From a virus (Duplodnaviria > Heunggongvirae > Uroviricota > Caudoviricetes): a DNA stretch of 56,022 bases. The stretch covers positions 1 to 56,022 of IMG/VR virus record IMGVR_UViG_2534681672_000003; one strand, 5' to 3'. Below, piece after piece: positions 17,353 through 36,496 of the stretch (within the stretch, counting starts at the first letter, position 1; each line of letters begins with the position of its first letter). The notes below the pieces were generated by a model, which ran no database searches, was not told where the DNA came from, and saw nothing but the letters and a program-made list of their open reading frames with translations. The position numbers and the translations under genes were made by a program.

Positions 17353-18141
17353 TTACGCCAGTTGTACGGACACGAACTCATCAGGGTCAGCCAGCAGCAT
17401 CAGCGGTGCTGACTGAATCATGGTGAACTCACGCGCCGGATCGCCGGTGGTCACCCAGTTTTTCGGGTAGCGGGCAGAGGCGTTAATGCCTTCGCGCTGT
17501 GCGTCCGCATCCTGAATGCAGCCATAGGTGCGCAGACCGCGTGCCTGAGTGTTCCCCAGCACCATCGTGTTGTCCGGCAGGAAGTTCTTTTTGACGCCGT
17601 TTTCCACGTACTGTCCGGAATACACGACGATGGCCACATCGCCATACATTCCCTTATAGGACACCGCTTTGCCCAGGTCTTTTACCGCTGTCTCCAGCTC
17701 GGAATGAGAGCCGCGACGGGTATCCAGCTTCTCCCTGACGGCTTTGAAAGAACGGAACAGCGCCCAGCCTTTCGGATCAAACACGATGATATTCACCACA
17801 CCGCTGGCGTTCAGCGCGTAGGCTTCGATATCGTCTGTCGGGTCATACGTGGACTTGTCACGCTTGCTCCACTCCGTGCCGCCGGACTGCGTGATGTTAT
17901 TCGCCTCACTGCGGCCCATATCCACCTCAACCGGATCGAAGGCTTCACCGGTCATGGTGTATTTGCCCTTAAGCACGGCAGAAACTGCCTGCATCTCTTC
18001 GACCTGAGCAATGGCCAGCTCTTCGTCACGCATGTTCTGCATGATGATGCGACGGCGGCGGTAAGTCGGGTCCGCCAGATTCTGCGGATCTTCATCCGGC
18101 AGGCGACGCAGGGTCATCTGCGGATTCACCTCATGCTTCGG
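17353..18141 (-). pseudogene. E: major capsid protein E, 3' fragment (codons from ...PKHEVNPQMTLRRLPDED to the stop)
   Basis: Lambda E C-terminal two-thirds; upstream reading frame hits a stop immediately past 18141, where unrelated AT-rich sequence begins. Confidence 0.9.
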
Positions 18142-18143
18142 CT
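18134..18143. repeat. left copy of 10-bp direct repeat TGCTTCGGCT (att core or target duplication)
   Basis: Identical 10-mer at 29567-29576; both copies lie in E codons K-P-K. Confidence 0.75.
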
Positions 18144-18220
18144 ACATGAGTCAAATATGAAAGGATGTGAATGATTTGATTACGTTTTAGCTATAGAATT
18201 GAAATGGAAAATCCTTGAAT

Positions 18221-18240
18221 GCAATACAACGTGCAATACA
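18221..18240. promoter_or_regulatory. candidate integrase arm-type site GCAATACAA-CGT-GCAATACA (left arm)
   Basis: Same motif in the same orientation at 29419-29438 near the other junction. Confidence 0.5.
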
Positions 18241-18277
18241 TGGATGAAAACCATCACTCATTTAACAAGAGGAATCT

Positions 18278-19183
18278 ATGCGCTCACCCAACAGAATGCA
18301 TGAACGCTCAACATTTTATAAGTATATGTCGTTGAATACCGCGAAGATTGTTCTTGATTCATGCAGCCTTAGATGGAGTTCTCCGGTCCTATTTAATGAC
18401 CCTTTTGATGTTCCAAGAGAAGTTATGCCTGGTATTAACGAAATTAATATTGGCAAAGCTTTAGCCCGCAAGTTAATAGCGGAGTTGATTACCCCCAGAG
18501 AAGACATACAAAATTTAAACCCTAGAATTAGAACAATGCTAAGTGATTTCCAAAAGTCATTTCCTTTAGGCATACCCGCAGGATTAATTGAAAGATTTCA
18601 AGAAATGGTAAACATTCCACCAGTTGGGATTGGCGCTCCTGCGGCAATACAAGAAATGAAAGATGTCTGGCGAGGAATGCTTAATAACAGAAGGATTTTG
18701 TGTTTATCTGAGAGCCCTATAATCACTCCTATGTGGAATCACTATGCCGATAAATATAAAGGTATAGTTATCGAATTTGATTGTGTAGACTTTCTGGATA
18801 GCGCTTGGTTAATAGCCAAACCTATGAAATACACAGATGAAATGCCTCTAACTCACACTGCTGAAGGGATGGCCGAGTTGCTTTTCATGCCAGACAATAA
18901 GTCAATTGAATATATCAATAATGAGATAATATTCATAAAAACAGAAGAATGGGCATATGAAAGAGAGTGGAGAATTTCAACCTACGCTAGGCCAAATAGC
19001 ACTGGTCAATATAGCGACTTAAAATTTCACCCTTTTGAGTTAAAATCTGTAATACTTGGTCCTCTTTTTGATGCCAGCGAGTTCGATGAAGTCGCATCAC
19101 TAGTTAAGATGTATCCAAGAGCGAAATTATTTAAAAGTTCATTTGGGAACGACAGAAAAATATCCATAGTACCACTACCTTAA
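18278..19183 (+). CDS. DUF2971 family protein (AT-rich cargo; candidate anti-phage function)
   Basis: N-terminal YKYMSLNTAKIVLDSCSLRWSSPVLFNDPFD matches the DUF2971 signature as recalled; AAGAGG RBS; low GC. Confidence 0.65.
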   Translation: MRSPNRMHERSTFYKYMSLNTAKIVLDSCSLRWSSPVLFNDPFDVPREVMPGINEINIGKALARKLIAELITPREDIQNLNPRIRTMLSDFQKSFPLGIPAGLIERFQEMVNIPPVGIGAPAAIQEMKDVWRGMLNNRRILCLSESPIITPMWNHYADKYKGIVIEFDCVDFLDSAWLIAKPMKYTDEMPLTHTAEGMAELLFMPDNKSIEYINNEIIFIKTEEWAYEREWRISTYARPNSTGQYSDLKFHPFELKSVILGPLFDASEFDEVASLVKMYPRAKLFKSSFGNDRKISIVPLP

Positions 19184-19223
19184 AAGGTCAAATGCTTTTG
19201 ACAAATAAAATCTATCGCCAGTT

Positions 19224-19240
19224 TTACTGGCGACTTTTAA
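19224..19240. terminator. bidirectional hairpin GCCAGT-TTT-ACTGGC between convergent genes
   Basis: Inverted repeat between the DUF2971 stop and the nu1-like stop. Confidence 0.45.
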
Positions 19241-19289
19241 GCAACAAAGAACCACCTAAGCACTCTTCCTACCTATGGTTTCATTTGTT

Positions 19290-19841
19290 TTAACTTCGCT
19301 GATTATCCTTGATATACCTTTCAGCCATATCTGGAATGTTATCTGAGATCTGGTAAGCTCGAATAAATGCTTTACTGACCTCCATCTTAATGAAGTCCTG
19401 ATACCGTTTTCCCATGCCAGGAAACTGTCGACAGATCGCAAGTGGAAGACTATCAATGATTGCTCCAACTTCCCCAGTTAATTTCGACAAGGCATAAGTC
19501 GCAAATGCAGTGTCAATTACCTCACCTGTTTCGCTGGCATTCTTCAGTTCCTGTGCGTCGGCCTGCGCACGCGTAAGTCGATGGCGTTCATACTCAATAG
19601 TCCCTGGCAGGAGATCTGCCTCGCTGGCCTGCCGCAGTTCTTCAACCTCCCGGCGCAGCTTTTCGTTCTCAATTTCAGCATCCCTTTCGGCATACCATTT
19701 TATGACGGCGGCAGAGTCATAAAGCACCTCATTACCCTTGCCACCGCCTCGCAGAACGGGCATTCCCTGCTCCTGCTAGTTCTGAATGGTACGGATACTC
19801 GCACCGAAAATGTCAGCCAGCTGCTTTTTGTTGGCTTCCAT
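19290..19841 (-). pseudogene. nu1-like small terminase subunit paralogue with in-frame TAG at codon 22 (possible restart at Met27)
   Basis: First two-thirds nearly identical at DNA level to helper nu1 (35283-35828) except TGG to TAG at 19776-19778; C-terminal third diverged. Confidence 0.7.
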
Positions 19842-19859
19842 TGTTCATTCCACGGACAA

Positions 19860-20060
19860 AACCAGAGAAAGGAAACGACAGAGGCCAAAAAGCCTGTTTT
19901 TAGCACCTGTCGTTTCCTTTCTTTTTAGGGGGTGTTTTTAATAAAAACATTAAGTTACGGCGAAGAAGAACGGAAACGCCTTAAACAGGAAAATTTTCAC
20001 AAATAGCGAAAAACTGCGCGCCTGACGCCCCGTAGCCTGTCAGATCGCCGGAAAGGACCC
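19860..20060. other. element cos site (cosB-like R-site sequences plus variant cosN at about 20019-20030)
   Basis: Aligns to helper cos at 35838-36030; flanks conserved, 12-nt overhang positions differ. Confidence 0.65.
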
Positions 20061-20086
20061 GCCAGCCAGAGCGGGCCCTAATTTCA

Positions 20087-20470
20087 TCAACCAATCAGCT
20101 TATAGCGACCATCCCGTGCATTGCGGCGTACACGCTCAATCTTGAGGCATAGCGCCGCATCTGGCTTTTTTGGGACAGGTACGCGGCAATATTCAGAAGC
20201 GCGAGGAATATTATTTATCCAGTCGATCACTTCACTTAAATACCAGGCCTTACGCCCTTCCGTAACCTGCACACGCTCCGGGAACTCTCCACTAGCCTCA
20301 AGGTTTAGCAGTGTACGACGACTCAGGGTTGTAATTTCCATCACCTGATTCATATCAACAAGGCGCTCGCTTAAACACATTTTGTCAGCGATAGCTTTTA
20401 ATTCCTCTACAGCTGGATTCGGGTACATCATTTCGGCAATTGGCTTAAGGTCATTGTAATCATTCTGCAT
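20087..20470 (-). CDS. AlpA/Xis-type HTH DNA-binding protein
   Basis: Motif TTLSRRTLLNLEASGEFPERVQVTEGRKAWYLSEVIDWI; AGGGGG RBS; last gene of the capsid operon, ending about 57 bp from cosN. Confidence 0.6.
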   Translation of the reverse strand: MQNDYNDLKPIAEMMYPNPAVEELKAIADKMCLSERLVDMNQVMEITTLSRRTLLNLEASGEFPERVQVTEGRKAWYLSEVIDWINNIPRASEYCRVPVPKKPDAALCLKIERVRRNARDGRYKLIG

Positions 20471-20481
20471 TGTATCCCCCT

Positions 20482-20823
20482 TTACACACGAGCCAGCGGC
20501 TGAACAGAAATACCTGAGCCAACAAACGCTGCAACCTTTACTGACAGTTCTTTAACAGACTCAGGCCAGTTCAGAGCATCAACATTTAAGACACCTGTCT
20601 TATAGACCTGAGCCTGTGTTTTTTTCGCGGTGTCGATTTGTACAGCGGAAACATAAACCGCTTTACCTACGCTCGAACCATCCCATACCACCAGTGCACC
20701 TGTTGCATCTTCCTGCATCAGTGGCGTAAATGCAGGAATTACCCCTTTATTAGCTGAAAATATCCCCAGCGTAGTCACCAGTGCTTCAGTGCCAGCCATG
20801 AGTTCAGTGTAATGAGTAGCCAT
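20482..20823 (-). CDS. head decoration protein, lambda D-like
   Basis: Alignable by eye to helper D (TPLM, WDG, YK-G, WPE, AF-G-IS shared); AGGGGGAG RBS. Confidence 0.7.
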   Translation of the reverse strand: MATHYTELMAGTEALVTTLGIFSANKGVIPAFTPLMQEDATGALVVWDGSSVGKAVYVSAVQIDTAKKTQAQVYKTGVLNVDALNWPESVKELSVKVAAFVGSGISVQPLARV

Positions 20824-20832
20824 TGCTCCCCC

Positions 20833-21873
20833 TTAGCCAATGCGAACGGTAACAAAACGATTGATGCGGGCCGGTATTGGCTGTGGTGCTGAATGTGTCT
20901 GCACATATTCAATAGCCGGATCACCAGGCACAATATAGTTTTTCGGTGCAAGTTCGGCTTTAGTCAGCCCCATTCGGATTAGCTCCGGATCCTGAATACC
21001 GCCATAGGCGACAATCCCCTGAAGAGCCGTATTGCCAAGCACCATCAAATCAGGATCAAGGAAATGTTTTTCTGTTCCGTCCTCGTCGGTATAACGCCCG
21101 CTGTAAACAACAATCGCAACATCGCCCATATACCCTTTAAAACTCACCGAATCACCAAGGTCTTTAAGGGCCGTTTCCAGTTCGGAATTAGAACCACGAC
21201 GGGTATCCAAAGCCTCTTTTATCGCTCTGAATGAACGGTATTTCTTCCATACATTACCACCCATAATGATGATATTAGTGACGCCCTCACTAAATTCTGC
21301 GTAGCTCTCAATATCATCATTTGGATCAAAAGTTTCTTTATCCTTACCTGACCACTCAGTACCGCCAGACTGAGTGATGATATTTTGTGGTTTTATATTC
21401 CAGTCCAGCTCATAACGTTCAATACCATCGCCCTCAATGATATTTTTCCCCGTTGTGATAGCCTGAACAGCAAGCCATTCAATACGTGCACGAATAGCTT
21501 TAGCCTGATTTACAATCGCCTGTTTAACTTTAATATTACGCGCCCCAAAAGCATTGTATTGCTCAGGTGACACACCAGCAGGGCGCACAGCTAACTTATT
21601 TGGATCAATGCTGCTTTTCGGCTTCATATAACCTGGACGAATTGTTTTTGATTCGTATCCCTCATCTCGTGAAACTTTACTGCCCACCATAGGAGAGCAA
21701 AACGCCGCGATCGGGATATTTGGATCGTCGATCGTATCAAGAATAATGTCTCTCGATTCAAACATTACCGAGCGAGTGAAAAACAAACTGGTAAACAACG
21801 CATTTAATTTTTTTTGTACATCTACAGCATTAACCACCTGTACAAGCTGAGTAGGCGAATATAAATCAACCAT
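20833..21873 (-). CDS. major capsid protein, lambda E-like (HK97 fold)
   Basis: 346 aa, alignable over the full length to helper E (ITQSGGTEWS, ALDTRRGSNSELETA, DVAIVVYSG shared); start trimmed to the ATG after AAGAGG. Confidence 0.8.
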   Translation of the reverse strand: MVDLYSPTQLVQVVNAVDVQKKLNALFTSLFFTRSVMFESRDIILDTIDDPNIPIAAFCSPMVGSKVSRDEGYESKTIRPGYMKPKSSIDPNKLAVRPAGVSPEQYNAFGARNIKVKQAIVNQAKAIRARIEWLAVQAITTGKNIIEGDGIERYELDWNIKPQNIITQSGGTEWSGKDKETFDPNDDIESYAEFSEGVTNIIIMGGNVWKKYRSFRAIKEALDTRRGSNSELETALKDLGDSVSFKGYMGDVAIVVYSGRYTDEDGTEKHFLDPDLMVLGNTALQGIVAYGGIQDPELIRMGLTKAELAPKNYIVPGDPAIEYVQTHSAPQPIPARINRFVTVRIG

Positions 21874-22074
21874 ACGCATCCTCTTTGCATTCATTAAAAA
21901 TAATTGTGGATATATGCTATCACCGATATTTGTCATGCGAACACATGCAACCGAGTGCAATGTTGTATAAAGTTTTGGGGTGACAACTTCAGTGCGGACA
22001 ATTAGTGTTAATATCTTCACTCCCTTTGGTCGGGATTTATGTAGCATGCAGGAAAATTTATTTTTTCCGGCCTT

Positions 22075-22792
22075 TTTGTGCACAGAAAACCCCCAGCTAG
22101 GCTGGGGGTTCCGGAAAGCTTTCAGCTTTGAGCCAGTTATTAAAACCCCTTTTGATTTGTTAAAACACTTTGCGGTCTGGCAACTGCAAGTGTCAAACAA
22201 GAAATCAAAAGGGGGTCCCAATGGGGAACGAAAAGAGCTTAGCGCACACCCGATGGAACTGTAAATATCACATAGTTTTTGCGCCAAAATACCGAAGACA
22301 GGTGTTCTACAGAGAGAAGCGTAGAGCAATAGGCAGTATTTTGAGAAAGCTGTGTGAGTGGAAAAGCGTACGGATTCTGGAAGCTGAATGCTGTGCAGAT
22401 CATATCCATATGCTTGTGGAGATCCCGCCCAAAATGAGCGTATCCGGGTTTATGGGATATCTGAAAGGGAAAAGCAGTCTGATGCTTTACGAGCAGTTTG
22501 GTGATTTGAAATTCAAATACAGGAACAGGGAGTTCTGGTGCAGAGGGTACTACGTCGATACAGTGGGTAAGAACACGGCGAAGATACAGGATTACATAAA
22601 GCACCAGCTTGAAGAGGATAAAATGGGAGAGCAGTTATCGATTCCCTATCCGGGCAGCCCGTTTACGGGCCGTAAGTAACGAAGTTGGATGCAAATGTCA
22701 GATCGTGTGCGCCTGTTAGGGCGCGGCTGGTAAGAGAGCCTTATAGGCGCATTTGAAAAACCTCCGGCTATGCCGGAGGATATTTATTTTAT
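22075..22792 (+). mobile_element. IS200 insertion sequence
   Basis: IS200-type TnpA flanked by terminal hairpins (about 22087-22110 and 22771-22789); boundaries approximate. Confidence 0.8.
22221..22679 (+). CDS. tnpA: IS200 transposase TnpA (Y1/HUH)
   Basis: MGNEKSLAHTRWNCKYHIVFAPKYRRQVFY... matches IS200 TnpA as recalled; trimmed to the ATG at 22221. Confidence 0.92.
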   Translation: MGNEKSLAHTRWNCKYHIVFAPKYRRQVFYREKRRAIGSILRKLCEWKSVRILEAECCADHIHMLVEIPPKMSVSGFMGYLKGKSSLMLYEQFGDLKFKYRNREFWCRGYYVDTVGKNTAKIQDYIKHQLEEDKMGEQLSIPYPGSPFTGRK

Positions 22793-22801
22793 TGGCAATA
22801 T

Positions 22802-23251
22802 TTAAAACGGGATATCATCTCCCCATTGCTCATTATCTCCCACTGGTGGCTGGCTTCCTTGCTGATCTGCCTGTTGTTTTGCTCTGTTCAGTGCGTCAGT
22901 AGCCTGCCCCTGTTGGCCTTTATTGCCGCCCGGTCGCACCGATCGCGCACTGATTACGCTGTCTGCGATAACCTGCCAGCCCTGCCGCGTTTCGCCGTTC
23001 TGTCCAGTCCACTGGCTCATCTGCATGTTACCCGCCACGCTCAGGAGTTCGCCTTTGTGATGCTTTGCCAGCGCGTCGGCTTGTCTGCCAAACGCCAGGA
23101 CAGATAACCACATCGTCGCCTGACCGTCATCCGACTGACTGCAGGGCAGTGATACCGCCATACGCGCCAACGTCATGGGGGTGCCCTTGCTGGTCTGTTT
23201 TGTCTGCGGGTCGTCCACCGACCGCCCGTAAACTGATATTTGCGCCGTCAT
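22802..23251 (-). CDS. SSB-like protein with C-terminal DDIPF tip
   Basis: Ends ...NEQWGDDIPF (SSB acidic-tip motif); glycine/glutamine-rich linker; AT-skewed neighbourhood. Confidence 0.5.
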   Translation of the reverse strand: MTAQISVYGRSVDDPQTKQTSKGTPMTLARMAVSLPCSQSDDGQATMWLSVLAFGRQADALAKHHKGELLSVAGNMQMSQWTGQNGETRQGWQVIADSVISARSVRPGGNKGQQGQATDALNRAKQQADQQGSQPPVGDNEQWGDDIPF

Positions 23252-23493
23252 GCGGCCTGCTCTCCGGACTTAATATTGATTGTTGTCACTTCCTCCGCTT
23301 CAGCAATCTCCCGTTCGGTCAGAGTGGCAAAGTTTGCAGCCGCCGTTGTCATGAATGCGCTAATCAGTTCGGGATGTGCTTTCGCGTATCCTTCCCCGGC
23401 GTTGCGGTCGATGATTTTTATCGACACCCTTAACCAGTGTTCCGTCAAATCAAGGGCGTGCGATTGTGATTTTTTTGTGTGCTTCGCTGTCAT
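23248..23493 (-). CDS. hypothetical protein
   Basis: 81-aa ORF, stop overlapping the SSB-like start. Confidence 0.35.
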   Translation of the reverse strand: MTAKHTKKSQSHALDLTEHWLRVSIKIIDRNAGEGYAKAHPELISAFMTTAAANFATLTEREIAEAEEVTTINIKSGEQAA

Positions 23494-23538
23494 AGGCTTT
23501 ATCTCACAGCAGTAAATTAAAATTTTTGCGTTTTAACC

Positions 23539-23770
23539 CTTCACCTGTTCACCTTTTGATATTTTCTCTTTTAATTCATAATGTTAATGGGTGAACAGTT
23601 TCACAAAAACTATTCACCAACTGTTCACCACTGTTCACCCTTGAAGCTCAATAAACAATCAAAAAGGTGAACAGTGAATAGTTTGGTGAACAGTTCATAA
23701 ATAACTGTTCACCCTATAATATACTGATATAAAAGATATTTATGACAGGGTGAACAGTGGTGAACAGTTA
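23539..23770. repeat. replication-origin iterons, about 9 copies of TGTTCACC / GGTGAACAG in both orientations
   Basis: Octamer recalled as the P4 alpha binding site at ori/crr; lies directly downstream of the primase-helicase gene. Confidence 0.7.
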
Positions 23771-23780
23771 TTCCATAAGT

Positions 23781-25601
23781 TTAATTTTTGCTATCGTCAT
23801 TAGTGACCGATACACATGATGGCATCCAGTCTTCTGATTCCTCCGTCAGGGTCACGTTTGAACGCAAACCGTGCTTCGTTTTCCGTTTCATATACTCCCT
23901 GCCATATTCCGCCATTGCCCCCGGCATATCTTTACCGAAGCGCGTCAGTGTTACAGGTTTACCAAACCCATGTGCCCTCATATAAGCCAGATAGGCATGA
24001 TAGAGATACCTGCGTGGGCTGAATGGCACAATTTCAGCATTACCCACTAACAGGCCATCACACATTACCGATGCCATGAGATAACCGCAGAAGTCCACCA
24101 GCGAATCCCCCTCTCGCTTTATCGCCAGTGCTTCTTCAGATTTCTGCTGCTCATATAACAGGCGTCTGGCTTCGTCCTGATCAGCAAACCTTGTAAGCAG
24201 ATGACGAATCACTACCGCCAGCTCACCTTCTATTTTTTCCGCCAGCATCGAATCGCGTTCGTTCTCCGGTACAACTTCCGAAAAATTGAATATCACCCGA
24301 CGACGTGAGATCCCCCCGCTGCGGTCACTGAATGACATGGCGTTATTGTTAACCGCCAGCACTACTGCCGGAATACGCGTTGAATAGGGGGCTTTGTGTT
24401 TCGGGTCAATTGCCACCTTGTCACCGCCTGTAATGGCCTTAATCCCTGCCCCATCACCAGCGTAGCGGGTCATATCCGGCATGATAATCAGCGAAAAGCC
24501 AACCACTAACGCACGTTCCCTTGCATCTTCCAGCGCCTTCATGCTTGCTGATACTGTATTAGCCTTACCCGCCAGCATGGTGCAAATCTCCGCCATCACA
24601 CTTTTACCACTTCCCCCCGGCCCTGTTACCTCAATGAATAACTGCCAGTCGTACCGGTTCGCCAGCACCATGAATAATGCCGCCAGTACGCGATCTGCCT
24701 TGCGGTCATTCTCAGCCACCGAACGGCGCAACCACTTCCAGAAATTCGGCGCATGTGTTGCCAGCGTTTCCCCCTCTGCTGGTGGGCTGAAAGGTAATTC
24801 ACTGGCAATTAACAACCAGTCGTTTTTGTTATGCTCCCGAAAGTTACCAGTTCTGGTATCAAATACCCCGTTACTGAATCCAATCAGGTTACGGGCTGTA
24901 TTCCCCATTACAGGCAAACTTAACTTCATGGTATCTACCGCCGATTTAATAGCGTTCTGCGAATAGCTGATCTCCGCATCAATGAAAATCTGCGCCATAG
25001 CACGCTGTAACTCTTTATCCTGAACCGGCTCCCATACAACGCCGTTGTAATGATGAACGGTGTCAGAGTCGGCATTGATTGCCAGTTCGCCGCCGTAATG
25101 TGCAAGGAGAACTTCACCGCGCTGGCTGGCCCCCATCTGATTCAACGCCAAAGATGAAGCACGCTCGTCATTTTTGCGCTCAGCCTTCTTCACTGGCAGT
25201 TCAATCACCAGACTTTCCCCATGCTCCGCTTCAGCTTTTAGGCCGACAAGGCGCGGAGTCCAGTCTTCAGGCTCTCGATCAACAAAGCTACGGTAACAAC
25301 GTGCTTCCTTTACGCCTGCAATAGCAAGTAATGTCGCAACCTTCGTCAGACTTTTCTCTGCAATCTTTCCGGCACGATAAACACGCACATAATGACGGCC
25401 TTCATCGATAATTTGCATATCATCCAGGTTTTCCAGTTGTTCCGTACCCAGAATGACTGGTGGTGTATCATCTGCTGCAATATGCTTACCTGCCCATTCA
25501 TTCCATTCTTTTGCATGGCTCCAGGCATCACTGCCAGCAAAAATGATGACTTCCGTCATTTTGTCGCGCGGTTGGTATTTTAAGTTCGGAGCACGTTTCA
25601 T
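23781..25601 (-). CDS. replication initiation primase-helicase (P4 alpha-like, P-loop NTPase)
   Basis: Walker A VTGPGGSGKS; 606 aa; GGAGG RBS; adjacent to the iteron origin. Confidence 0.65.
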   Translation of the reverse strand: MKRAPNLKYQPRDKMTEVIIFAGSDAWSHAKEWNEWAGKHIAADDTPPVILGTEQLENLDDMQIIDEGRHYVRVYRAGKIAEKSLTKVATLLAIAGVKEARCYRSFVDREPEDWTPRLVGLKAEAEHGESLVIELPVKKAERKNDERASSLALNQMGASQRGEVLLAHYGGELAINADSDTVHHYNGVVWEPVQDKELQRAMAQIFIDAEISYSQNAIKSAVDTMKLSLPVMGNTARNLIGFSNGVFDTRTGNFREHNKNDWLLIASELPFSPPAEGETLATHAPNFWKWLRRSVAENDRKADRVLAALFMVLANRYDWQLFIEVTGPGGSGKSVMAEICTMLAGKANTVSASMKALEDARERALVVGFSLIIMPDMTRYAGDGAGIKAITGGDKVAIDPKHKAPYSTRIPAVVLAVNNNAMSFSDRSGGISRRRVIFNFSEVVPENERDSMLAEKIEGELAVVIRHLLTRFADQDEARRLLYEQQKSEEALAIKREGDSLVDFCGYLMASVMCDGLLVGNAEIVPFSPRRYLYHAYLAYMRAHGFGKPVTLTRFGKDMPGAMAEYGREYMKRKTKHGLRSNVTLTEESEDWMPSCVSVTNDDSKN

Positions 25602-25885
25602 TTGTTACCTCCGGCAACTAACATTGCCCGAATTTTACGGATATAGCCTGCGGCACGCCTCTGATTATCTGTCTTGCAATTTTTTACCAGAATGAAATCT
25701 CTTTCGAACTGCTGACGCGGCATAACACATTCAAAATCATAACCATCACGCAAATAAGAGACACGACGATCATCAACCGAAATAATCTTTACCCGATAGC
25801 CATAGCTGTCTTTGAAAATATCCCCAAGGCTGATTTTTGAATGAGTTTGACCGCTGGCAATAAAGCCAGAAAATTTATTTTTCAT
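25598..25885 (-). CDS. hypothetical protein (replication operon)
   Basis: 95-aa ORF with ATGA overlap onto the primase start. Confidence 0.4.
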   Translation of the reverse strand: MKNKFSGFIASGQTHSKISLGDIFKDSYGYRVKIISVDDRRVSYLRDGYDFECVMPRQQFERDFILVKNCKTDNQRRAAGYIRKIRAMLVAGGNK

Positions 25886-25888
25886 TTT

Positions 25889-26113
25889 TTATTCTCCGGT
25901 ATAGCTCTGGTCGTGTATTTTTATAGCTTCATCCAGCTCTTTGATGACAGGATCAAGTAACGTAATTAACGCTCCAGCTAAATTAGCATCCCGTTCATCG
26001 TGTTCCGCATTTGTTGTCCCATCAAGCCAGGTTGATAAGATTTCTCGCATATTTTTGCCACAAACGAGCGCGTTTTCAGCATGTGTCAGCACTTTAAAAT
26101 AAAGATCATTCAT
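25889..26113 (-). CDS. hypothetical protein
   Basis: 74-aa ORF in the same operon. Confidence 0.35.
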   Translation of the reverse strand: MNDLYFKVLTHAENALVCGKNMREILSTWLDGTTNAEHDERDANLAGALITLLDPVIKELDEAIKIHDQSYTGE

Positions 26114-26471
26114 GGCACACCTCCTGACGAATACGGGCGGCGAATATCATCACGTAGCCAGTTGGGAATTGCTGGCGGGCTTCCTGTTCGCTGGCGGCCT
26201 CGATGTGTATTACGCGTGGTTGTGCGGTGCTCAGGGCGATAAAACGCCAGATGAAATTGTTTTCGCATTTCTGAATAAACAGCGTGTTTTCTTCACGCCC
26301 TTTCCAGAAAGCCGCAGTATAGCCCATCTCCTTAACCATCTTGCGGGCATCAACCAGCGTGTCAGCGGCAACATGTACCGTAGTTGCTCCATCTGCCATG
26401 CGGTCGTGGTGTAGTGCCAGAAAGGTGTATATAAATTTAGGGTGAGTTTGGGTATGCTGTGTTCCAGCCAT
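26106..26471 (-). CDS. hypothetical protein, first gene of the leftward operon
   Basis: 121 aa from the ATG after a GAGG RBS; the longer ORF-track version runs antisense through the neighbouring gene and was trimmed. Confidence 0.45.
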   Translation of the reverse strand: MAGTQHTQTHPKFIYTFLALHHDRMADGATTVHVAADTLVDARKMVKEMGYTAAFWKGREENTLFIQKCENNFIWRFIALSTAQPRVIHIEAASEQEARQQFPTGYVMIFAARIRQEVCHE

Positions 26472-26554
26472 AATCGTTACCTCGTTTAACGGTTTGGTTA
26501 GAAGCCCGGTTAGTGTTCGCGCACTGCCGGGTTTCGTCGTTTTTATGAATCGAT

Positions 26555-26670
26555 CATTGTGAGATACATAGCGACCATGATGTGAGATATACATTATAAT
26601 GTGGTGATATACATTGCAAGTGTTTTTATATCTCACTTTTGTGTATAGTGATATACACATAACAAATTGG
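26555..26670. promoter_or_regulatory. divergent promoter/operator region with repeated GTGAGATA(T)ACAT and GTGATATACA motifs
   Basis: At least five direct and inverted copies between the divergent operons. Confidence 0.6.
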
Positions 26671-26679
26671 TGATTAACT

Positions 26680-26982
26680 ATGTCTGTATACAAAAATGCA
26701 AAATCGCAAATGACAACGATCAGGGTTCCCCACGATGTTATGGAGGGCATGGAATCCGTAAAACTGGACGGCGAAAGCAACGCCGGATTCATAGTAACCG
26801 CCATGCGCGGTGAGATCGCCCGCCGCCAGGCAGAAGGAAGCGGAGAAAATCCCCTCGTGTCTTCACTGGATGCCTTAGCTAAGGTCGAACAAATCGGCAT
26901 CAAGGCAGCGGAGGAAATCGGGCAACTCGTAGCCGTCGCTCGTGAAGAACTCCAGCGGCGTAAAGCCAAAGAATCTGAATAA
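26680..26982 (+). CDS. putative ribbon-helix-helix (CopG/Arc-like) regulator
   Basis: TTIRVPHDVMEGMESVKL...NAGFIVTAMRGEI fits a strand-helix-helix pattern; sits beside the operator repeats. Confidence 0.4.
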   Translation: MSVYKNAKSQMTTIRVPHDVMEGMESVKLDGESNAGFIVTAMRGEIARRQAEGSGENPLVSSLDALAKVEQIGIKAAEEIGQLVAVAREELQRRKAKESE

Positions 26983-27332
26983 TTACTATCAGCGCCGTGA
27001 TGTGAGTAACTACGGCGCATTGCTATGTAAATACTGGCAATAAACAGAAAAGGTAGTTCTACTCCGAATAATTTTATCTGACACTACTCCTGAACTAACA
27101 TGCGCTTATCTTACAGGATATAAATATAGATCCATAAAATCACGATTAAATAAAGCCGCTCCAAACATAAACCACACCCAACGCTTAACAAGATAGCAAC
27201 AAACAGATAAATAACTTGCAGAAATATTTATCGCAAGGATTATCATTATTAATTACAAATCACTTTACCAAGTCATTCCCCTCTCTTATCATAAAGAGAA
27301 AGTAATAAATAAGTTAAGGGAGTTAGAATACT

Positions 27333-27869
27333 ATGAATCTAAAAAAAATAGCCACAAACATAAAAAACAAGATAATAGAAACATTCAATAAACTTATATT
27401 AGAGGCATCTAAAACCCCCACACAAGATGAAATTAAAATACTTGAGAGAAGAAGTAAAAAGTTTAATTACTCCTTTTTCTCATACGCAGTCACAGGAGCC
27501 ATAATGGTTTTTTGCTCTCAACCATTAATAAAATACGCAAACCCAATGCTTATTTTATTGAGTGGTCTGTTACTGTCTATCATCATTATCCTTCTCAGAA
27601 TGATTTATATTTCACAAGCGAATGCATCATGGACAACCAAAAAACGTTCACATGTACTAGTTCATTTTCTTTCTGCATGTTTCATAGCGTCAACATTGAC
27701 GTTGTTATATCAGGCTTACGATAATAACATCACACACAAATTGTACTGTAAAAATATACAACAACTTATTGAAAAAAGGATAGAAACAGAAAAAAATATC
27801 AGCATATTCAGTGGGATGCAATGCACCCCGGCATATGATTACTCTTTATTTGGATTTAATCTCTTATAA
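27333..27869 (+). CDS. AT-rich membrane protein (cargo, unknown function)
   Basis: 178 aa, hydrophobic segments, very low GC, preceded by about 300 bp of AT-rich DNA. Confidence 0.5.
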   Translation: MNLKKIATNIKNKIIETFNKLILEASKTPTQDEIKILERRSKKFNYSFFSYAVTGAIMVFCSQPLIKYANPMLILLSGLLLSIIIILLRMIYISQANASWTTKKRSHVLVHFLSACFIASTLTLLYQAYDNNITHKLYCKNIQQLIEKRIETEKNISIFSGMQCTPAYDYSLFGFNLL

Positions 27870-27938
27870 AGAATGTTATTACTGATTTGAGTGCAAATTC
27901 TCAAATCAGTAATTCATAATATTTTATTCTGAGATAAT

Positions 27939-28166
27939 TTAAACTACCCACTCACCTCGAATCCATGCCTGCACTTCTGAAAGACGATATGCAACAGCAG
28001 TGGAGCCAATCTTGATCCGCTTAGGAAATTTCCCTTCCTTCTCCAGCTTCCAGCGTGTGCTGTTCGCAAGAGTGGTTAGCTCCCGACATTCTTTCTCACG
28101 GATCATACGATCGATGTTAGGAATGTACTCCAAACCCTTTTTATCAACAATCGCCATTTTTTTCAT
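27939..28166 (-). CDS. alpA: AlpA-family transcriptional regulator/excisionase
   Basis: 75 aa with AlpA-type HTH (LTTLANSTRWKLEKEGKFPKRIKIG); directly downstream of int. Confidence 0.75.
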   Translation of the reverse strand: MKKMAIVDKKGLEYIPNIDRMIREKECRELTTLANSTRWKLEKEGKFPKRIKIGSTAVAYRLSEVQAWIRGEWVV

Positions 28167-28167
28167 G

Positions 28168-29403
28168 TTAACCAGCCTTTTGTTTGAGGATTATCACTTT
28201 TGAATCAGCACCTGCGATGCTATTGAGATATGTAGTCCAGAGTTCCAGAGCATCCAGTTTTTTAGCCATAAACTTACTCCGGTTGTAAACACCTGCCACG
28301 CCAGGTAGCGCATGGCCTAACAGTTGTTCTACTACATAAAATTCAACACCGAGATCACTTAGATGAGTAGATAGCGTTCTTCTAAGGTCGTGTAGTGACC
28401 ATTGTTTTTCATGGCCCAAACGTTTACCGATTTTCCCCCCAATCTTGCTTACGCTTTCTCTAATTCGCAGACTTCCCAGCACATAACCAGTATGTTTTGT
28501 CTCTTCGTGAACATCCGTTACCCACTGTCGTAGAATTTCAGGTACTGGTCTGACGATTTCAACACCAGTTTTTGAGTGATCTTTTGGTACCGTCCAAACC
28601 CAACTTTCGAGATCCCATTCGCTCCATTCAGATAATCGGGCTTCACTCATTCGACATCCAAATACTGTACAAAGCACAAACATTTTTCGCGTGTATTCAG
28701 ACATTAGTTTTAAATCAGGCTCGACAAAAATTGCCTTCCAGAGCTGGCCCAGTTCGGCTTCATCCAGAACCCGATCCCGCTTACCTGCAATCTGCCCCAC
28801 ATCACTCATGCGCAAATCCTTTAAAGCATCACATGTCGCGTACTGGCGTACCCGACAAAAACGAAGAGCTAATTTAGTGTCAGAAAAAACATACGCCGCC
28901 ATAACTGGTGCATTACGTTTAATTCGGTCAAAACAGTCCAGCCATTCATATAGGTGAGTGTCATTTACAGGCAAATGACCGATATAGGGAAAGATATGCT
29001 TTCGAAATCTGCCAAGCGTTACAGCATGAGTTTTACGACGCACCTTACAGTAATTTTCATACCAGTAATTTAGTGCATCCTCCACTGTGACCGGCTTTAA
29101 GCGTTCTTCAGCCTGAATCTTAATCTGGATACGCGGATCACGTTTGTCAGCCAACCAACCACGGCACTCGTCGCGCTTTTCCCTTGCCTGTTTGAGTGAC
29201 ATATCAGGATATTTACCCAACGTTAGCCAGACCGGAGCAGCCCGGCCACCTGCTAACCTGTAGAAGAAAACAAAGCTCACAGCCCCCTTGGTACTCACAC
29301 GAATAGAAAGCCCCTTTCCATCAGCAATGGTGATCTGCTTTTCTCTGGGTTTCCCCAGATATCCTTTAAGCGCTTTGTCGCTCAGTTTGTTCTCGCCAGC
29401 CAT
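28168..29403 (-). CDS. int: tyrosine integrase, P4/CP4-57 family with N-terminal arm-binding domain
   Basis: N-terminus LSDKALKGYLGKPREKQITIADGKGLSIRVSTKG; C-terminal HDLRRT...LLGH...Y catalytic motifs; trimmed to the ATG at 29403. Confidence 0.85.
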   Translation of the reverse strand: MAGENKLSDKALKGYLGKPREKQITIADGKGLSIRVSTKGAVSFVFFYRLAGGRAAPVWLTLGKYPDMSLKQAREKRDECRGWLADKRDPRIQIKIQAEERLKPVTVEDALNYWYENYCKVRRKTHAVTLGRFRKHIFPYIGHLPVNDTHLYEWLDCFDRIKRNAPVMAAYVFSDTKLALRFCRVRQYATCDALKDLRMSDVGQIAGKRDRVLDEAELGQLWKAIFVEPDLKLMSEYTRKMFVLCTVFGCRMSEARLSEWSEWDLESWVWTVPKDHSKTGVEIVRPVPEILRQWVTDVHEETKHTGYVLGSLRIRESVSKIGGKIGKRLGHEKQWSLHDLRRTLSTHLSDLGVEFYVVEQLLGHALPGVAGVYNRSKFMAKKLDALELWTTYLNSIAGADSKVIILKQKAG

Positions 29404-29418
29404 TTTTAGCCCCAAAAA

Positions 29419-29438
29419 GCAATACAAGCTGCAATACA
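29419..29438. promoter_or_regulatory. candidate integrase arm-type site GCAATACAA-GCT-GCAATACA (right arm)
   Basis: Matches the left-arm motif at 18221-18240. Confidence 0.5.
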
Positions 29439-29566
29439 GAGATGATTGCAACACACAGATAACGAGGAAAATTCAGTGAAAGCGCCAGATAAACTTATTC
29501 TTTATTATCAAAAGATTAAGTGTAAAAACCAGCAACTACACGAAAGCCTCAGAAAGCCATGCTAAG

Positions 29567-29576
29567 TGCTTCGGCT
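29567..29576. repeat. right copy of 10-bp direct repeat TGCTTCGGCT
   Basis: Identical to 18134-18143. Confidence 0.75.
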
Positions 29577-29811
29577 TGACATATCCCGGCGTAAATTCAG
29601 AGGTGGAGCCGCCACGGGAACGGATAACCTCACCGGAAACAATCGGCGAAACGTACAGCGCCATGTTTACAAGTCCCGGAATTTGTGAGAGATAGACTTT
29701 CTCCGTAGTGAAGGGATAGCTCTCACGGAAAAAGAGACGCAGAAACAGCGGATCAAACTTAAATTTCTGCTCATTTGCCGCCAGCAGCTGGGCGGTTGTG
29801 TACATCGACAT
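29567..29811 (-). pseudogene. E: major capsid protein E, 5' fragment (MSMYTTAQLL...GYVKPKH)
   Basis: Lambda E N-terminus; frame leaves E sequence right after KPKH at the junction. Confidence 0.9.
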
Positions 29812-30208: not shown

Positions 30209-31581
30209 TTACACTGGTGTGTTCAGCAAATCGTTAACGGCATCAGATGCCGGGTTACCTGCCGCCAGCGGTGTCGGTGCCCCCTGCATCAGACGATCCA
30301 GCGCAGTGTCACTGCGCGCCTGTGCACTCTGTGGTGCTGCGGCCAGAATGCGGCGGGCCGTTTCCACGGTCATACCGGGGGTTTCTGCCAGCACGCGGGC
30401 CTGTTCTTCGCGTCCGTGAGCCTCCTCACAATTGAGGATCCCCATAATGCGGCTGTTTTCTGCCGCAACCGCTGCGGTGATCTGTGCGTTCACGTCCGGC
30501 TGCGCCGCGCTGGCGTTCTCGCCCTCTGTCGCTGACACCACGTCAGTAACGTCAGCCTGCAAAGCAGTGGCTGAAACAGTTGTTGATTGAGTCTCTTTGG
30601 TCATTCGCCCTCCTGAGAGACGGGATTTACGTGCATCCAGTGCCTCACGCATAACGGTGATCGCATCGGTGCTGTTGACAAGTTCATCAGCCAGTCCGGC
30701 ATCAATGGCCTCCTGACCGCTGTACACTGCAGCCTCGGTATCCAGCACAGCCTGCACGGACAGGCCGGTATATGCCGACACCTTCTGCGCAAACATCCGG
30801 CGGGTTGCATCCATCCGGGACTGCAGTGTCTCCCGGACGTCATCCGGAAGATGGCTGTAGGGGTTGCCATCCACCTTATGGCTGCCGCTGTAAATCAGCG
30901 TGATTTCCACGCCCTGTTTCTCCAGCGCAGCACCGTTTGCCATCCACCTTATGGCTGCCGCTGTAAATCAGCGTGATTTCCACGCCCTGTTTCTCCAGCG
31001 CAGCACCGTAATTACTGTGAGCCATCATGACGCCGATGGAGCCTGTCCGGGCGGTCTGCGTGACCAGACGCCGGGAGGCGGCACTGGCAAGCAACTGACC
31101 TGCACTGCAGTTCATGTCGTTGGCAAGCGTCCATACCGGTTTTATGTCACGCACACGGGCGATGATGTCAGCGCAGTCAAATGCCCCCGCCACCATCCCG
31201 CCGGGCGTGTCCATATCGAGCAGAATGCCGTCCACCATCGGATCGCTGGCAGCCTGTTGCAGACGGGCGATAATGCCGTTGTAACCGGTCATCCCCGAGT
31301 ACGGCTGCAGCGCCCGCGTCCGGCTGACCAGCGTGCCGGACACCGGCAGCACGGCGATGCCGTTCATGACCTGATAACTGCGGGCCTGTCGTGGTCCGTC
31401 ATCATCACCGGATAATGCCAGCGTCGCGAGTGCCTCCTGGGCAGTCAGGCTGTCGCCGGACACCGCATCCGTCAGGCGGCTGATCCCAAGCTGGCCTGCA
31501 AGCGCACAAAAGAAAACCCGCGCATAGGCGGGTTCAAGCATCAGCGGCTCATTAAAGGCCATACTGGCAATATGCGGGAGA

Positions 31582-35308: not shown

Positions 35309-35828
35309 TCAGCAACCCCGGTATCAGTTCATCCAGCGCGGCTGCTTTGTTCATGGCTTTGATGATATCCCGTTTCAGGAAATCAACATGTCGGTTTTCC
35401 AGTTCCGGAAAACGCCGCTGCACCGACAGGGGGATCCCGTCGAGAATACTGGCAATTTCACCTGCGATCCGCGACAACACGAAAGTACAGAATGCGGTTT
35501 CCACCACTTCAGCGGAGTCTCTGGCATTCTTCAGTTCCTGTGCGTCGGCCTGCGCACGCGTAAGTCGATGGCGTTCGTACTCAATAGTCCCTGGCTGGAG
35601 ATCTGCCTCGCTGGACTGCCGCAGTTCTTCAACCTCCCGGCGCAGCTTTTCGTTCTCAATTTCAGCATCCCTTTCGGCATACCATTTTATAACGGCGGCA
35701 GAGTCATAAAGCACCTCATTACCCTTGCCACCGCCTCGCAGAACGGGCATTCCCTGTTCCTGCCAGTTCTGAATGGTACGGATACTCGCACCGAAAATGT
35801 CAGCCAGCTGCTTTTTGTTGACTTCCAT
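35283..35828 (-). CDS. nu1: terminase small subunit Nu1
   Basis: 181 aa, MEVNKKQLADIFGASIRTIQNWQEQGMPVLRGG... matches lambda Nu1. Confidence 0.96.
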
Positions 35829-35837
35829 TGTTCATTC

Positions 35838-36030
35838 CACGGCCAAAAACAGAGAAAGGAAACGACAAAGGCCCAAAAGTTCGTTTTCAGCACCTGTCGT
35901 TTCCTTTCTTTTCAGGGGGTATTTTAAATAAAAACATTAAGTTACGACGAAGAAGAACGGAAACGCCTTAAACCGGAAAATTTTCATAAATAGCGAAAAC
36001 CCGCGAGGTCGCCGCCCCGTAACCTGTCGG
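35838..36030. other. prophage cos site (cosB R sites plus cosN; 12-nt cohesive end at 36006-36017)
   Basis: Plus strand AGGTCGCCGCCC is the reverse complement of lambda GGGCGGCGACCT; flanks match the lambda genome ends as recalled. Confidence 0.9.
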
Positions 36031-36496
36031 ATCGCCGGAAAGGACCCGTTGGCCGTTCTGGTCTACTTCGTAATGGGATTTAATAGCTGAACGACAAAAG
36101 TCTTGCGACCACAGTCACACAGACCTGAATACACGTCCTGTTTCTTCCACCCCCGCACAGGACTGGCGAGCATGAGGGACACCCCCGCGAACCATAAACG
36201 CGGTAAAAACCCGGTGTGCATCGTTTTTGATTATTCCCGCACACTCACGCAGAAGGAATTCCCCGTCGGGCTACGGTCATGGTTAATGCGGGAATACGGC
36301 GACGATACAGCGCAGCTAAAAGGGTAATGGACAGATAGAGCGGTTTATTTCATTCCACAGGATTCTGAGTGCCCCCCCCCTCCTCCAATAGGCTGAGCAT
36401 CCACCTATATAGTTTTAATTTTCATCAATCCATTTAACTATCGTTTAATTGTTGTCACATAGGATTCTGCCGTTTTTAACAATGCAGGATAATAAG

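What the first reader, a model, noticed from the sequence alone, without database searches (positions are those of the whole stretch)
18134..29576. An 11.4-kb integrase-bearing element is inserted inside the prophage major capsid gene E
The lambda E reading frame runs 29811 down to 29567 (MSMYTT...GYVKPKH), then resumes at 18141 down to 17353 (PKHEVNPQ... to the stop). The 11.4 kb in between is foreign: a P4-family integrase and AlpA at the right edge, a replication module, cargo genes. Both junctions carry the same 10-mer TGCTTCGGCT (18134-18143 and 29567-29576), which lies in E codons K-P-K. Just inside each junction is the same GCAATACAA-N3-GCAATACA motif in the same orientation, as expected for integrase arm-type sites. 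Satellites normally target conserved host loci such as tRNA genes; targeting a conserved capsid-gene motif of a helper-type phage would be unusual.
Basis: partly seen in the sequence, partly recalled or inferred. Interest (0 to 1): 0.9.

Follow-up and report, generated by a model that had tools for sequence, protein, structure and literature searches.

The report
Known satellite embedded in prophage capsid gene

Summary
The lambda-type E gene (minus strand) is split at 18134-18143 and 29567-29576. Rejoining the halves at the shared 10-mer TGCTTCGGCT gives an intact 341-aa E. The 11,433 bp between them are a low-GC satellite carrying an integrase, AlpA, a primase, SSB, its own E-like capsid and D-like decoration genes, a cos site and a defence-type cargo gene.

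It is not new. Tommasini, Mageeney and Williams (2023, PMC10111431) described this family as helper-embedded PICIs. Their type element, Eco567.11capE of E. coli NRG857c, has the same site (E:Phage_cap_E:80), a 10-bp identity block and the doubled TGTATTGC motif about 81 and 132 bp from the attP centre. They showed its excision after mitomycin C. The window's integrase is 409/411 residues identical to that of NRG857c.

In 5,426 complete E. coli genomes, 176 carry this integrase gene and 173 have the same integrase-to-E junction. The empty site is intact in 3,101 genomes and in phage lambda.

This copy looks degraded. It has an IS200 insertion and a nonsense codon in its Nu1-like gene, and a 73-bp duplication frameshifts helper gene C.

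One detail was not found in the papers read: the satellite keeps lambda-type cosQ and cosB but has a different cosN (5 of 12 cohesive-end bases).

The parts
17353..18143 (-). 3' part of helper major capsid gene E (codons about 79-341), ending in the attL core
   Evidence: RefSeq annotates the identical stretch in SCU-102 as 'major capsid protein, missing N-terminus'.
18134..18143 (.). attL core TGCTTCGGCT (10-bp identity block, E codons K-P-K)
   Evidence: attL core equals attR core in all 10 loci where both ends are visible.
18221..18240 (+). Doubled motif GCAATACAAcgtGCAATACA, the reverse complement of the published tgTGTATTGCantgTGTATTGCa; putative integrase arm-type site, 82.5 bp from the core centre
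   Evidence: The paper gives 81 +/- 2 bp.
18278..19183 (+). Cargo gene: DUF2971 protein (RefSeq start at 18425), matching the PADLOC candidate defence family PDC-S31
   Evidence: Pfam DUF2971 E = 1e-9. PADLOC PDC-S31 E = 2.5e-32. Replaced by a TIR protein in IAI39 and by DUF262 + HEPN in NRG857C.
19290..19841 (-). Nu1-like small terminase pseudogene. The first ~100 codons are nearly identical to the helper's Nu1, the C-terminal part is divergent, and codon 22 is TGG->TAG.
   Evidence: Pfam Phage_Nu1 E = 1e-63. Alignment and stop codon. The codon is intact (TGG) in L007 and L033. RefSeq: 'internal stop'.
19866..20060 (-). Satellite cos: cosQ-like 20044-20060, variant cosN GGGCGTCAGGCG 20019-20030, and exact lambda-type R3 19961-19978, R2 19906-19921, R1 19866-19881
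   Evidence: The surrounding 531 bp (19531-20061) are 94% identical to helper 35518-36048.
20087..20470 (-). 127-aa AlpA-like helix-turn-helix protein next to cos; function unknown
   Evidence: Pfam Phage_AlpA E = 8e-9. PDB 8c3t AlpA E = 2e-9, and no Rpp-like hit.
20482..20823 (-). Satellite head-decoration protein homologue (lambda D family); 38% identical to helper D
   Evidence: Pfam HDPD E = 4.5e-15. blastp against helper D.
20833..21873 (-). Satellite major capsid protein homologue (lambda E family, 346 aa); 42% identical to helper E. At the homologous site it shares only AGCCGAA of the core.
   Evidence: Pfam Phage_cap_E E = 1e-41. blastp and DNA at the site.
22078..22786 (+). IS200C insertion (tnpA 22221-22679; STnc490 leader RNA 22088-22211) between SSB and the satellite capsid gene
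   Evidence: Pfam Y1_Tnp. Rfam STnc490, 144.6 bits. Absent from NRG857C and IAI39.
22802..23493 (-). SSB (22802-23251) and an 81-aa hypothetical protein (23248-23493); part of the replication zone
   Evidence: Pfam SSB. RefSeq annotation.
23781..25885 (-). D5_N / DUF5906 / Pox_D5 primase-helicase (23781-25601) and DUF4222 protein (25598-25885); part of the replication zone
25889..27869 (.). Variable early zone: 74-aa hypothetical (25889-26113, -), Icd-like (26106-26471, -), YlcI/YnfO (26680-26982, +), 178-aa hydrophobic protein (27333-27869, +). No Bro-N domain and no C4/isrK RNA detected.
   Evidence: RefSeq names. Pfam. Rfam.
27939..28166 (-). AlpA (excisionase/regulator)
   Evidence: Pfam Phage_AlpA E = 3e-15.
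28168..29403 (-). Tyrosine integrase with P4-type arm-binding domain; 409/411 residues identical to the 11capE integrase of NRG857C
   Evidence: One search counted 410 identical of 412 aligned positions, one of which is the stop codon.
29419..29438 (+). Second doubled motif GCAATACAAgctGCAATACA, 133.5 bp from the core centre
   Evidence: The paper gives 132 +/- 2 bp.
29567..29811 (-). attR core TGCTTCGGCT (29567-29576) and the 5' part of helper E (codons 1-81)
36006..36047 (-). Helper cos for comparison: canonical lambda cosN GGGCGGCGACCT (36006-36017) and cosQ-like (36031-36047), 16 kb from the satellite cos and in the same orientation

Best explanation
The insert is a helper-embedded phage-inducible chromosomal island (HE-PICI) of the E:Phage_cap_E:80 site group. 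It is a close relative of Eco567.11capE and lies in a lambda-like prophage at the argU/DLP12 site of an E. coli genome nearly identical to strain SCU-102.

**Mechanism**
- The satellite's P4-type tyrosine integrase recombines an attP with a 10-bp core in E codons K79-P80-K81. The attP has the core flanked by two co-oriented doubled TGTATTGC repeats, about 82 and 133 bp away. This splits E and duplicates the core. The structure is shown here.
- All key satellite genes are co-oriented with the helper late operon.
- On SOS induction the whole composite excises and replicates. Integrase and AlpA then excise the satellite precisely, which restores E. This was shown for 11capE in the paper and is inferred for this copy.
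- The satellite is presumably packaged from its own cos site by the helper's terminase into lambda-type heads with helper tails. This step is inferred; no virions have ever been recovered.
- The satellite brings its own E-like and D-like proteins and, at its left end, a swappable defence-type cargo gene.

**State of this copy.** The att sites, integrase and AlpA are intact. However, an IS200 sits upstream of the satellite capsid gene, the Nu1-like gene has a stop codon, and helper gene C is frameshifted. The pair probably cannot complete a cycle without another lambdoid helper.
For: - **Structure:**
- **Gene content:** Pfam, PADLOC and RefSeq annotation.
- **Relation to the type element:** the integrase is 409/411 residues identical to that of NRG857C, and the architecture matches NRG857C 11capE gene for gene.
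- **Motif spacing:** 82.5 and 133.5 bp here, against the published 81 +/- 2 and 132 +/- 2 bp.
- **Recurrence:** the integrase gene is in 176 of 5,426 genomes, and the integrase-to-E junction is in 173.
- **Empty site:** intact in 3,101 genomes and in lambda.
- **Core:** attL core equals attR core in 10/10 loci, across two synonymous alleles.
- **Published experiments:** excision and the attB/attP junctions were confirmed by qPCR and deep sequencing.
- **cos:** the satellite cos shares 531 bp at 94% identity with the helper cos region.
Against: - Nothing contradicts the classification.
- Mobility of this particular copy is doubtful. IS200 is inserted at 22078-22786, the satellite Nu1-like gene has a TAG at codon 22, and a 73-bp duplication frameshifts helper C.
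- Packaging has never been demonstrated for any member of the family.
- The satellite cosN differs from the helper's at 5 of 12 positions. Cleavage by the helper terminase is therefore an assumption.
- No excised circle was found in the IMG/VR loci.
Confidence: 0.93

Rival explanations
1. Stranded relic. The element is an HE-PICI by descent, but this helper-satellite pair is a decaying, immobile fossil. Interruption of E is then simply one more lesion in a defective prophage.
For: - Helper C (protease/scaffold gene) is frameshifted by a 73-bp tandem duplication at 30864-31009.
- An IS200 lies in the satellite late zone.
- The satellite Nu1-like gene has a nonsense codon.
- The paper notes that many HE-PICI helpers look truncated, and it recovered no virions.
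Against: - Integrase, AlpA, primase, both cores and both doubled motifs are intact.
- The otherwise identical SCU-102 prophage has an intact C. The lesion is therefore very recent, or an assembly error.
- Everything else in the helper, from int to the tail fibres, is annotated as complete in SCU-102.
Confidence: 0.35
2. Capsid-replacement cassette. The insert is a stable mosaic part of one phage and supplies alternative E and D proteins, so the 55-kb composite behaves as a single virus rather than as helper plus satellite.
For: - The insert carries full-length E and D homologues, co-oriented with the late operon.
- The paper raises a 'backup copy' idea.
Against: - The insert has its own integrase, AlpA, primase, SSB and cos.
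- The same late module occurs in ordinary chromosomal PICIs at tRNA-Pro and cspD.
- 11capE excises separately after induction.
- The composite is about 11.4 kb longer than the helper, and the paper notes this exceeds lambda's insert tolerance of about 10% of its genome.
- Satellite E is only 42% identical to helper E.
Confidence: 0.03
3. Assembly artefact, or a chance repeat flanking a non-specific insertion.
For: None beyond the a-priori possibility.
Against: - The identical junction is present in 173 independent complete genomes.
- The reading frame is restored precisely.
- The motifs lie at the published spacing.
Confidence: 0.01

Closest known systems
HE-PICI Eco567.11capE of E. coli NRG857c, site group E:Phage_cap_E:80 (Tommasini, Mageeney & Williams 2023, PMC10111431)
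   Same: - Same integrase (409/411 residues).
- Same target codons in E and a 10-bp identity block.
- Same doubled motif and spacing.
- Same gene order: int, AlpA, Icd-like, DUF4222, primase, SSB, E-like, D-like, HTH, cos.
   Different: - **Core allele:** TGCTTCGGCT here against TGCTTGGGTT there; the difference is synonymous.
- **Helper site:** the helper sits at argU/DLP12 here, not at icd.
- **Left-end cargo:** DUF2971 plus a longer Nu1-like pseudogene here, DUF262 + HEPN there.
- **IS200:** this copy has an extra IS200.
Gram-negative cos PICIs such as EcCICFT073 (Fillol-Salom et al. 2018, 2019; PMC6739421)
   Same: Similar size, int-alpA-primase organisation, lambdoid helpers, a cos site near the end of the island and a capsid-gene homologue. 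The same E-D-HTH block is present in chromosomal PICIs L042 and L043.
   Different: - Those islands integrate in chromosomal genes, not in the helper.
- EcCICFT073 keeps the phage cosQ and cosN but has a different cosB, read by Rpp-TerS.
- This element does the reverse: phage-type cosB, different cosN, and no Rpp-like protein detected.
Satellite P4
   Same: P4-type integrase arm-binding domain, AlpA-family regulator, D5-type primase-helicase, about 11 kb, and a cargo hotspot.
   Different: - No Sid, Psu, Delta or Epsilon homologues were found, and no CI/seqA RNA.
- The helper is lambdoid, not P2-like.
- It integrates in the helper itself.
- It carries capsid and decoration homologues rather than an external scaffold.
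Capsid-forming PICIs (cfPICI; bioRxiv 10.1101/2022.09.08.507074)
   Same: The satellite encodes its own major capsid protein.
   Different: By their abstract, cfPICIs encode all the proteins needed to make their capsids and package their DNA, and take only tails from the helper. From my own knowledge of that family, this means a portal, protease, head-tail connectors and terminase. This element has only capsid and decoration homologues, plus a TerS remnant.

Membership tests
HE-PICI, site group E:Phage_cap_E:80 | Integrated inside a late gene (E) of a prophage, with int, alpA and primase co-oriented with that gene | tested here: met
   E is split at 18143/29567. All three genes and E lie on the minus strand. 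The prophage is complete from intD to the tail fibres in SCU-102.
HE-PICI, site group E:Phage_cap_E:80 | Primary tyrosine integrase belonging to the 11capE clade | tested here: met
   409/411 residues identical to the NRG857C 11capE integrase. No tree was built; at this identity one is not needed.
HE-PICI, site group E:Phage_cap_E:80 | 10-bp attL/attR identity block at about codon 80 of the Phage_cap_E profile, with no replacement sequence for the target gene | tested here: met
   The core lies at E residues 79-81. E residues 5-339 align to profile positions 1-328. The exact profile column was not extracted.
HE-PICI, site group E:Phage_cap_E:80 | Two co-oriented copies of the doubled TGTATTGC motif, 81 +/- 2 and 132 +/- 2 bp from the attP centre | tested here: met
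   82.5 and 133.5 bp from the core centre to the nearer motif edge. The motif occurs nowhere else in the window.
HE-PICI, site group E:Phage_cap_E:80 | Four ordered zones: Integration, Bro, Replication, Late | tested here: inconclusive
   The Integration, Replication and Late zones are clear. The zone between alpA and the primase has no detectable Bro-N domain and no C4/isrK RNA. The same is true of the type element's annotation.
HE-PICI, site group E:Phage_cap_E:80 | Excision after helper induction, restoring the late gene | not testable with these tools
   Shown experimentally for 11capE. For this copy only the intact int, alpA and att sites can be shown.
P4-like satellites (SatelliteFinder definition, recalled from memory) | Presence of psu, sid, delta and epsilon alongside int, alpA and alpha | tested here: not met
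   No Pfam hit to these families in any ORF of the element. Only int, AlpA and a D5-type primase are shared.
Capsid-forming PICI | Full set of head and packaging genes (capsid, protease, portal, connectors, TerS, TerL; gene list recalled from memory) | tested here: not met
   Only E-like and D-like genes and a Nu1-like pseudogene are present.
Rpp-type cos PICI (EcCICFT073-like packaging) | An Rpp protein plus a PICI-specific cosB, with phage-type cosN | tested here: not met
   cosB R3, R2 and R1 are the lambda type and cosN is the part that differs. The HTH protein next to cos matches AlpA, not Rpp, among PDB sequences. The other small ORFs were not compared with Rpp.

The most novel reading that the evidence does not exclude
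The satellite lineage has a private cosN. Its cos keeps the helper's cosQ and the Nu1-binding sites R3, R2 and R1, but the 12-base cohesive end is GGGCGTCAGGCG instead of lambda's GGGCGGCGACCT.

This is the mirror image of the EcCICFT073/Rpp strategy, which keeps the phage cosN and changes cosB.

If the variant is cut by the helper terminase, satellite DNA would have ends that cannot anneal with helper ends. That would keep helper-cos and satellite-cos pairings in the unexcised composite from producing viable hybrid chromosomes. The two cos sites there are co-oriented and 16 kb apart. If the helper terminase cannot cut the variant, the family needs a different, unidentified packaging partner.

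Either way this would be an undescribed way for a cos satellite to separate its packaging from its helper's.
Probability: 0.3. Interest if true: 0.45.

Novelty: already known. Interest (0 to 1): 0.22.

Why it matters
A satellite that lives inside its helper's capsid gene couples its own excision to the helper's ability to build heads, and it rides the helper's replication and late transcription. That is a striking arrangement, but it was reported, surveyed (491 elements at 14 late-gene sites) and partly tested in 2023.

This window adds one more instance, in a helper at a different chromosomal site and with a different cargo gene.

What remains open for the whole family:
- whether and how these elements are packaged;
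- what their own capsid and decoration proteins do;
- whether their divergent cosN is cut by lambda-type terminase.

Tried and rejected
- **Evidence of free satellite circles.** I looked in 36 IMG/VR loci. There was no attP junction and no terminal repeat. The ~11-kb contigs are prophage-type calls bounded by E fragments.
- **Rpp-type packaging.** The 127-aa HTH protein next to cos matches only AlpA among solved structures.
- **P4-type immunity RNAs (C4/isrK).** None found at E <= 0.1. The only strong Rfam hit is the IS200 leader STnc490.
- **A phage source for the divergent 3' half of the satellite Nu1-like gene.** No megablast match among 50,697 phage records. Only the lambda-like 5' half and cos match.
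- **The 73-bp duplication in other genomes.** The search was uninformative, because the tool merges the two half-matches onto a single 73-bp copy.
- **Rejected readings.** Assembly artefact, P4-like satellite and cfPICI (defining genes absent), and a single mosaic phage (the insert has its own integration, replication and cos modules).

Full report
**Observation**

- On the minus strand, a lambda-type E reading frame runs from 29811 to the 10-mer at 29576-29567 and resumes at 18143-18134, continuing to the stop at 17353.
- TGCTTCGGCT occurs only at those two places in the window.
- Joining the two halves at one copy of the 10-mer gives a 341-aa ORF without a stop. It matches Pfam Phage_cap_E over its whole length.
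- The motif GCAATACAA-N3-GCAATACA is found only at 18221-18240 and 29419-29438, both on the + strand.
- G+C falls from about 0.58 in the prophage to 0.32-0.51 within the insert.

**What the insert encodes**

Listed from the right edge on the minus strand, unless marked (+):

| Coordinates | Feature |
|---|---|
| 28168-29403 | Tyrosine integrase with a P4-type arm-binding domain |
| 27939-28166 | AlpA |
| 25889-27869 | Small variable zone: a hydrophobic protein (+), YlcI/YnfO (+), an Icd-like protein, a 74-aa protein |
| 25598-25885 | DUF4222 protein |
| 23781-25601 | D5-type primase-helicase |
| 23248-23493 | 81-aa protein |
| 22802-23251 | SSB |
| 22078-22786 | IS200C insertion (+) |
| 20833-21873 | Full-length lambda-E-family capsid gene, 42% identical to helper E |
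| 20482-20823 | Lambda-D-family decoration gene |
| 20087-20470 | 127-aa AlpA-like HTH protein |
| 19866-20060 | cos site |
| 19290-19841 | Nu1-like small-terminase gene with TGG->TAG at codon 22 |
| 18278-19183 | DUF2971 protein (+), matching the PADLOC candidate defence family PDC-S31 |

**Source of the window**

The window is almost identical to the composite prophage of E. coli SCU-102 (NZ_CP051753). It differs by 6 substitutions and one 73-bp duplication over 56 kb. That prophage lies between tRNA-Arg/intD and ompT, which is the DLP12 site. It is annotated as complete from the integrase through the tail fibres.

**Already published**

A full-text search led directly to Tommasini, Mageeney and Williams 2023 (PMC10111431). 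They describe:
- Eco567.11capE in E. coli NRG857c, an 11-kb island integrated within a lambda-like E gene that carries its own capsid gene;
- a 10-bp identity block at a site they name E:Phage_cap_E:80;
[quoted passage not shown] They measured this by qPCR and deep sequencing. They could not recover virions.

**Membership tests**
- The window's integrase is 409/411 residues identical to that of NRG857C (one search counted 410 of 412 aligned positions, one being the stop).
- The gene order matches the NRG857C element gene for gene.
- The motif copies lie 82.5 and 133.5 bp from the core centre.
- Integrase, AlpA, primase and E are all on the same strand.
- The only feature I could not confirm is a recognisable Bro-N protein or C4/isrK RNA in the second zone.
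- The defining genes of P4-like satellites and of capsid-forming PICIs are absent.

**Population evidence from 5,426 complete E. coli genomes**
- The integrase gene is present in 176 genomes.
- A 330-bp probe spanning the integrase-side end and the E 5' fragment is covered in full in 173. Site choice is therefore essentially invariant.
- IAI39 is one exception. There an IS3 element and a deletion have removed the right junction, but the left junction is still in E.
- The reconstructed empty site is continuous in 3,101 genomes and in phage lambda.
- The core has synonymous alleles: TGCTTCGGCT, TGCTTGGGTT and TGCTTGGGCT.
- In all 10 loci where both ends are visible, attL and attR carry the same allele. 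This fits the usual requirement of tyrosine recombinases for identity in the overlap region.

**Variable cargo at the left end**

| Strain | Left-end cargo |
|---|---|
| This window / SCU-102 | DUF2971 (PDC-S31) |
| IAI39 | TIR-domain protein |
| NRG857C | DUF262 + HEPN |

This looks like the defence-gene hotspots known from other satellites. That comparison rests on my general knowledge of the field, not on a test made here.

**Late module and cos**

The E-D-HTH-cos block is more widespread than the integrase: 395-414 genomes against 176. It also occurs in ordinary chromosomal PICIs at tRNA-Pro and at cspD/clpS, where it is accompanied by a full-length small terminase.

Comparing the cos regions shows a pattern I did not find stated in either paper.
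- In the window, 531 bp (19531-20061) are 94% identical to the helper's cos-Nu1 region.
- cosQ and the Nu1-binding sites R3, R2 and R1 are preserved.
- The 12-base cosN is GGGCGTCAGGCG, whereas the helper has lambda's GGGCGGCGACCT.
- The same variant is present in the NRG857C and IAI39 satellites, while the NRG857C helper has the lambda sequence.
- It is present in 36 IMG/VR loci, always beside the satellite HTH-D-E block and never beside a terminase gene pair. Those loci were found by exact match to the variant, so its invariance among them is not independent evidence.
- The chromosomal PICI relatives show the opposite pattern: canonical cosN and an unrelated cosB. This resembles EcCICFT073, where Rpp redirects TerS to a PICI-specific cosB.
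- Whether lambda-type terminase nicks the variant cosN is unknown.

**State of this copy**
- Integrase, AlpA, primase, both cores and both motif copies are intact.
- The late zone is interrupted by IS200, which is absent from NRG857C and IAI39.
- The Nu1-like gene carries a nonsense codon. The codon is intact in loci L007 and L033.
- In the helper, a 73-bp tandem duplication (30864-30936 / 30937-31009) frameshifts gene C after about residue 222. Removing one copy restores the 439-aa ORF, as in SCU-102.
- If the duplication is real, the resident helper cannot mature heads, and the satellite would depend on an incoming lambdoid phage.

**Verdict**

The finding is already known: it is a further copy of a published, experimentally examined satellite family. 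The residual novelty is limited to the satellite-specific cosN and to details of cargo and decay.

Noticed in passing
window 30864-31009: Perfect 73-bp tandem duplication inside helper gene C (S49 protease/scaffold). It frameshifts the gene after about residue 222. It is absent from the otherwise identical SCU-102 prophage, and removing one copy restores a 439-aa ORF.
   Followed up: partly
window 20019-20030 versus 36006-36017: The satellite cosN (GGGCGTCAGGCG) differs from the helper's lambda-type cosN (GGGCGGCGACCT) at 5 of 12 bases, while cosQ and the R3, R2 and R1 sites are conserved. The variant is conserved in NRG857C, IAI39 and 36 IMG/VR satellite loci.
   Followed up: partly
window 22078-22786: IS200C copy (tnpA plus the STnc490 leader RNA) inserted between the satellite's SSB gene and its capsid gene. 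It is absent from the NRG857C and IAI39 elements.
   Followed up: yes
window 19290-19841; L007, L033: The satellite Nu1-like gene is a chimera. Its first ~100 codons and cos are about 94-99% identical to the helper's, while its C-terminal, terminase-A-binding part is divergent and has no megablast match in the phage collection. Codon 22 is TAG here and in L011 but TGG (intact) in L007 and L033.
   Followed up: partly
window 18144-19200; L002 4491-5633; L003 1061-2777: The left end of the satellite is a swappable cargo slot: DUF2971/PDC-S31 here, a TIR-domain protein in IAI39, and DUF262 + HEPN in NRG857C.
   Followed up: partly
L042 (tRNA-Pro, strain GTEN_23) and L043 (cspD/clpS, strain 2015C-3163): Ordinary chromosomal PICIs carry the same capsid-decoration-HTH block (87-93% DNA identity). 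They have a full-length small terminase, canonical cosN and an unrelated cosB, which shows modular exchange between helper-embedded and chromosomal PICIs.
   Followed up: partly
window 18134-18143 / 29567-29576 and 10 related loci: The att core has synonymous alleles: TGCTTCGGCT, TGCTTGGGTT and TGCTTGGGCT. attL and attR always carry the same allele within a locus (10 of 10).
   Followed up: partly
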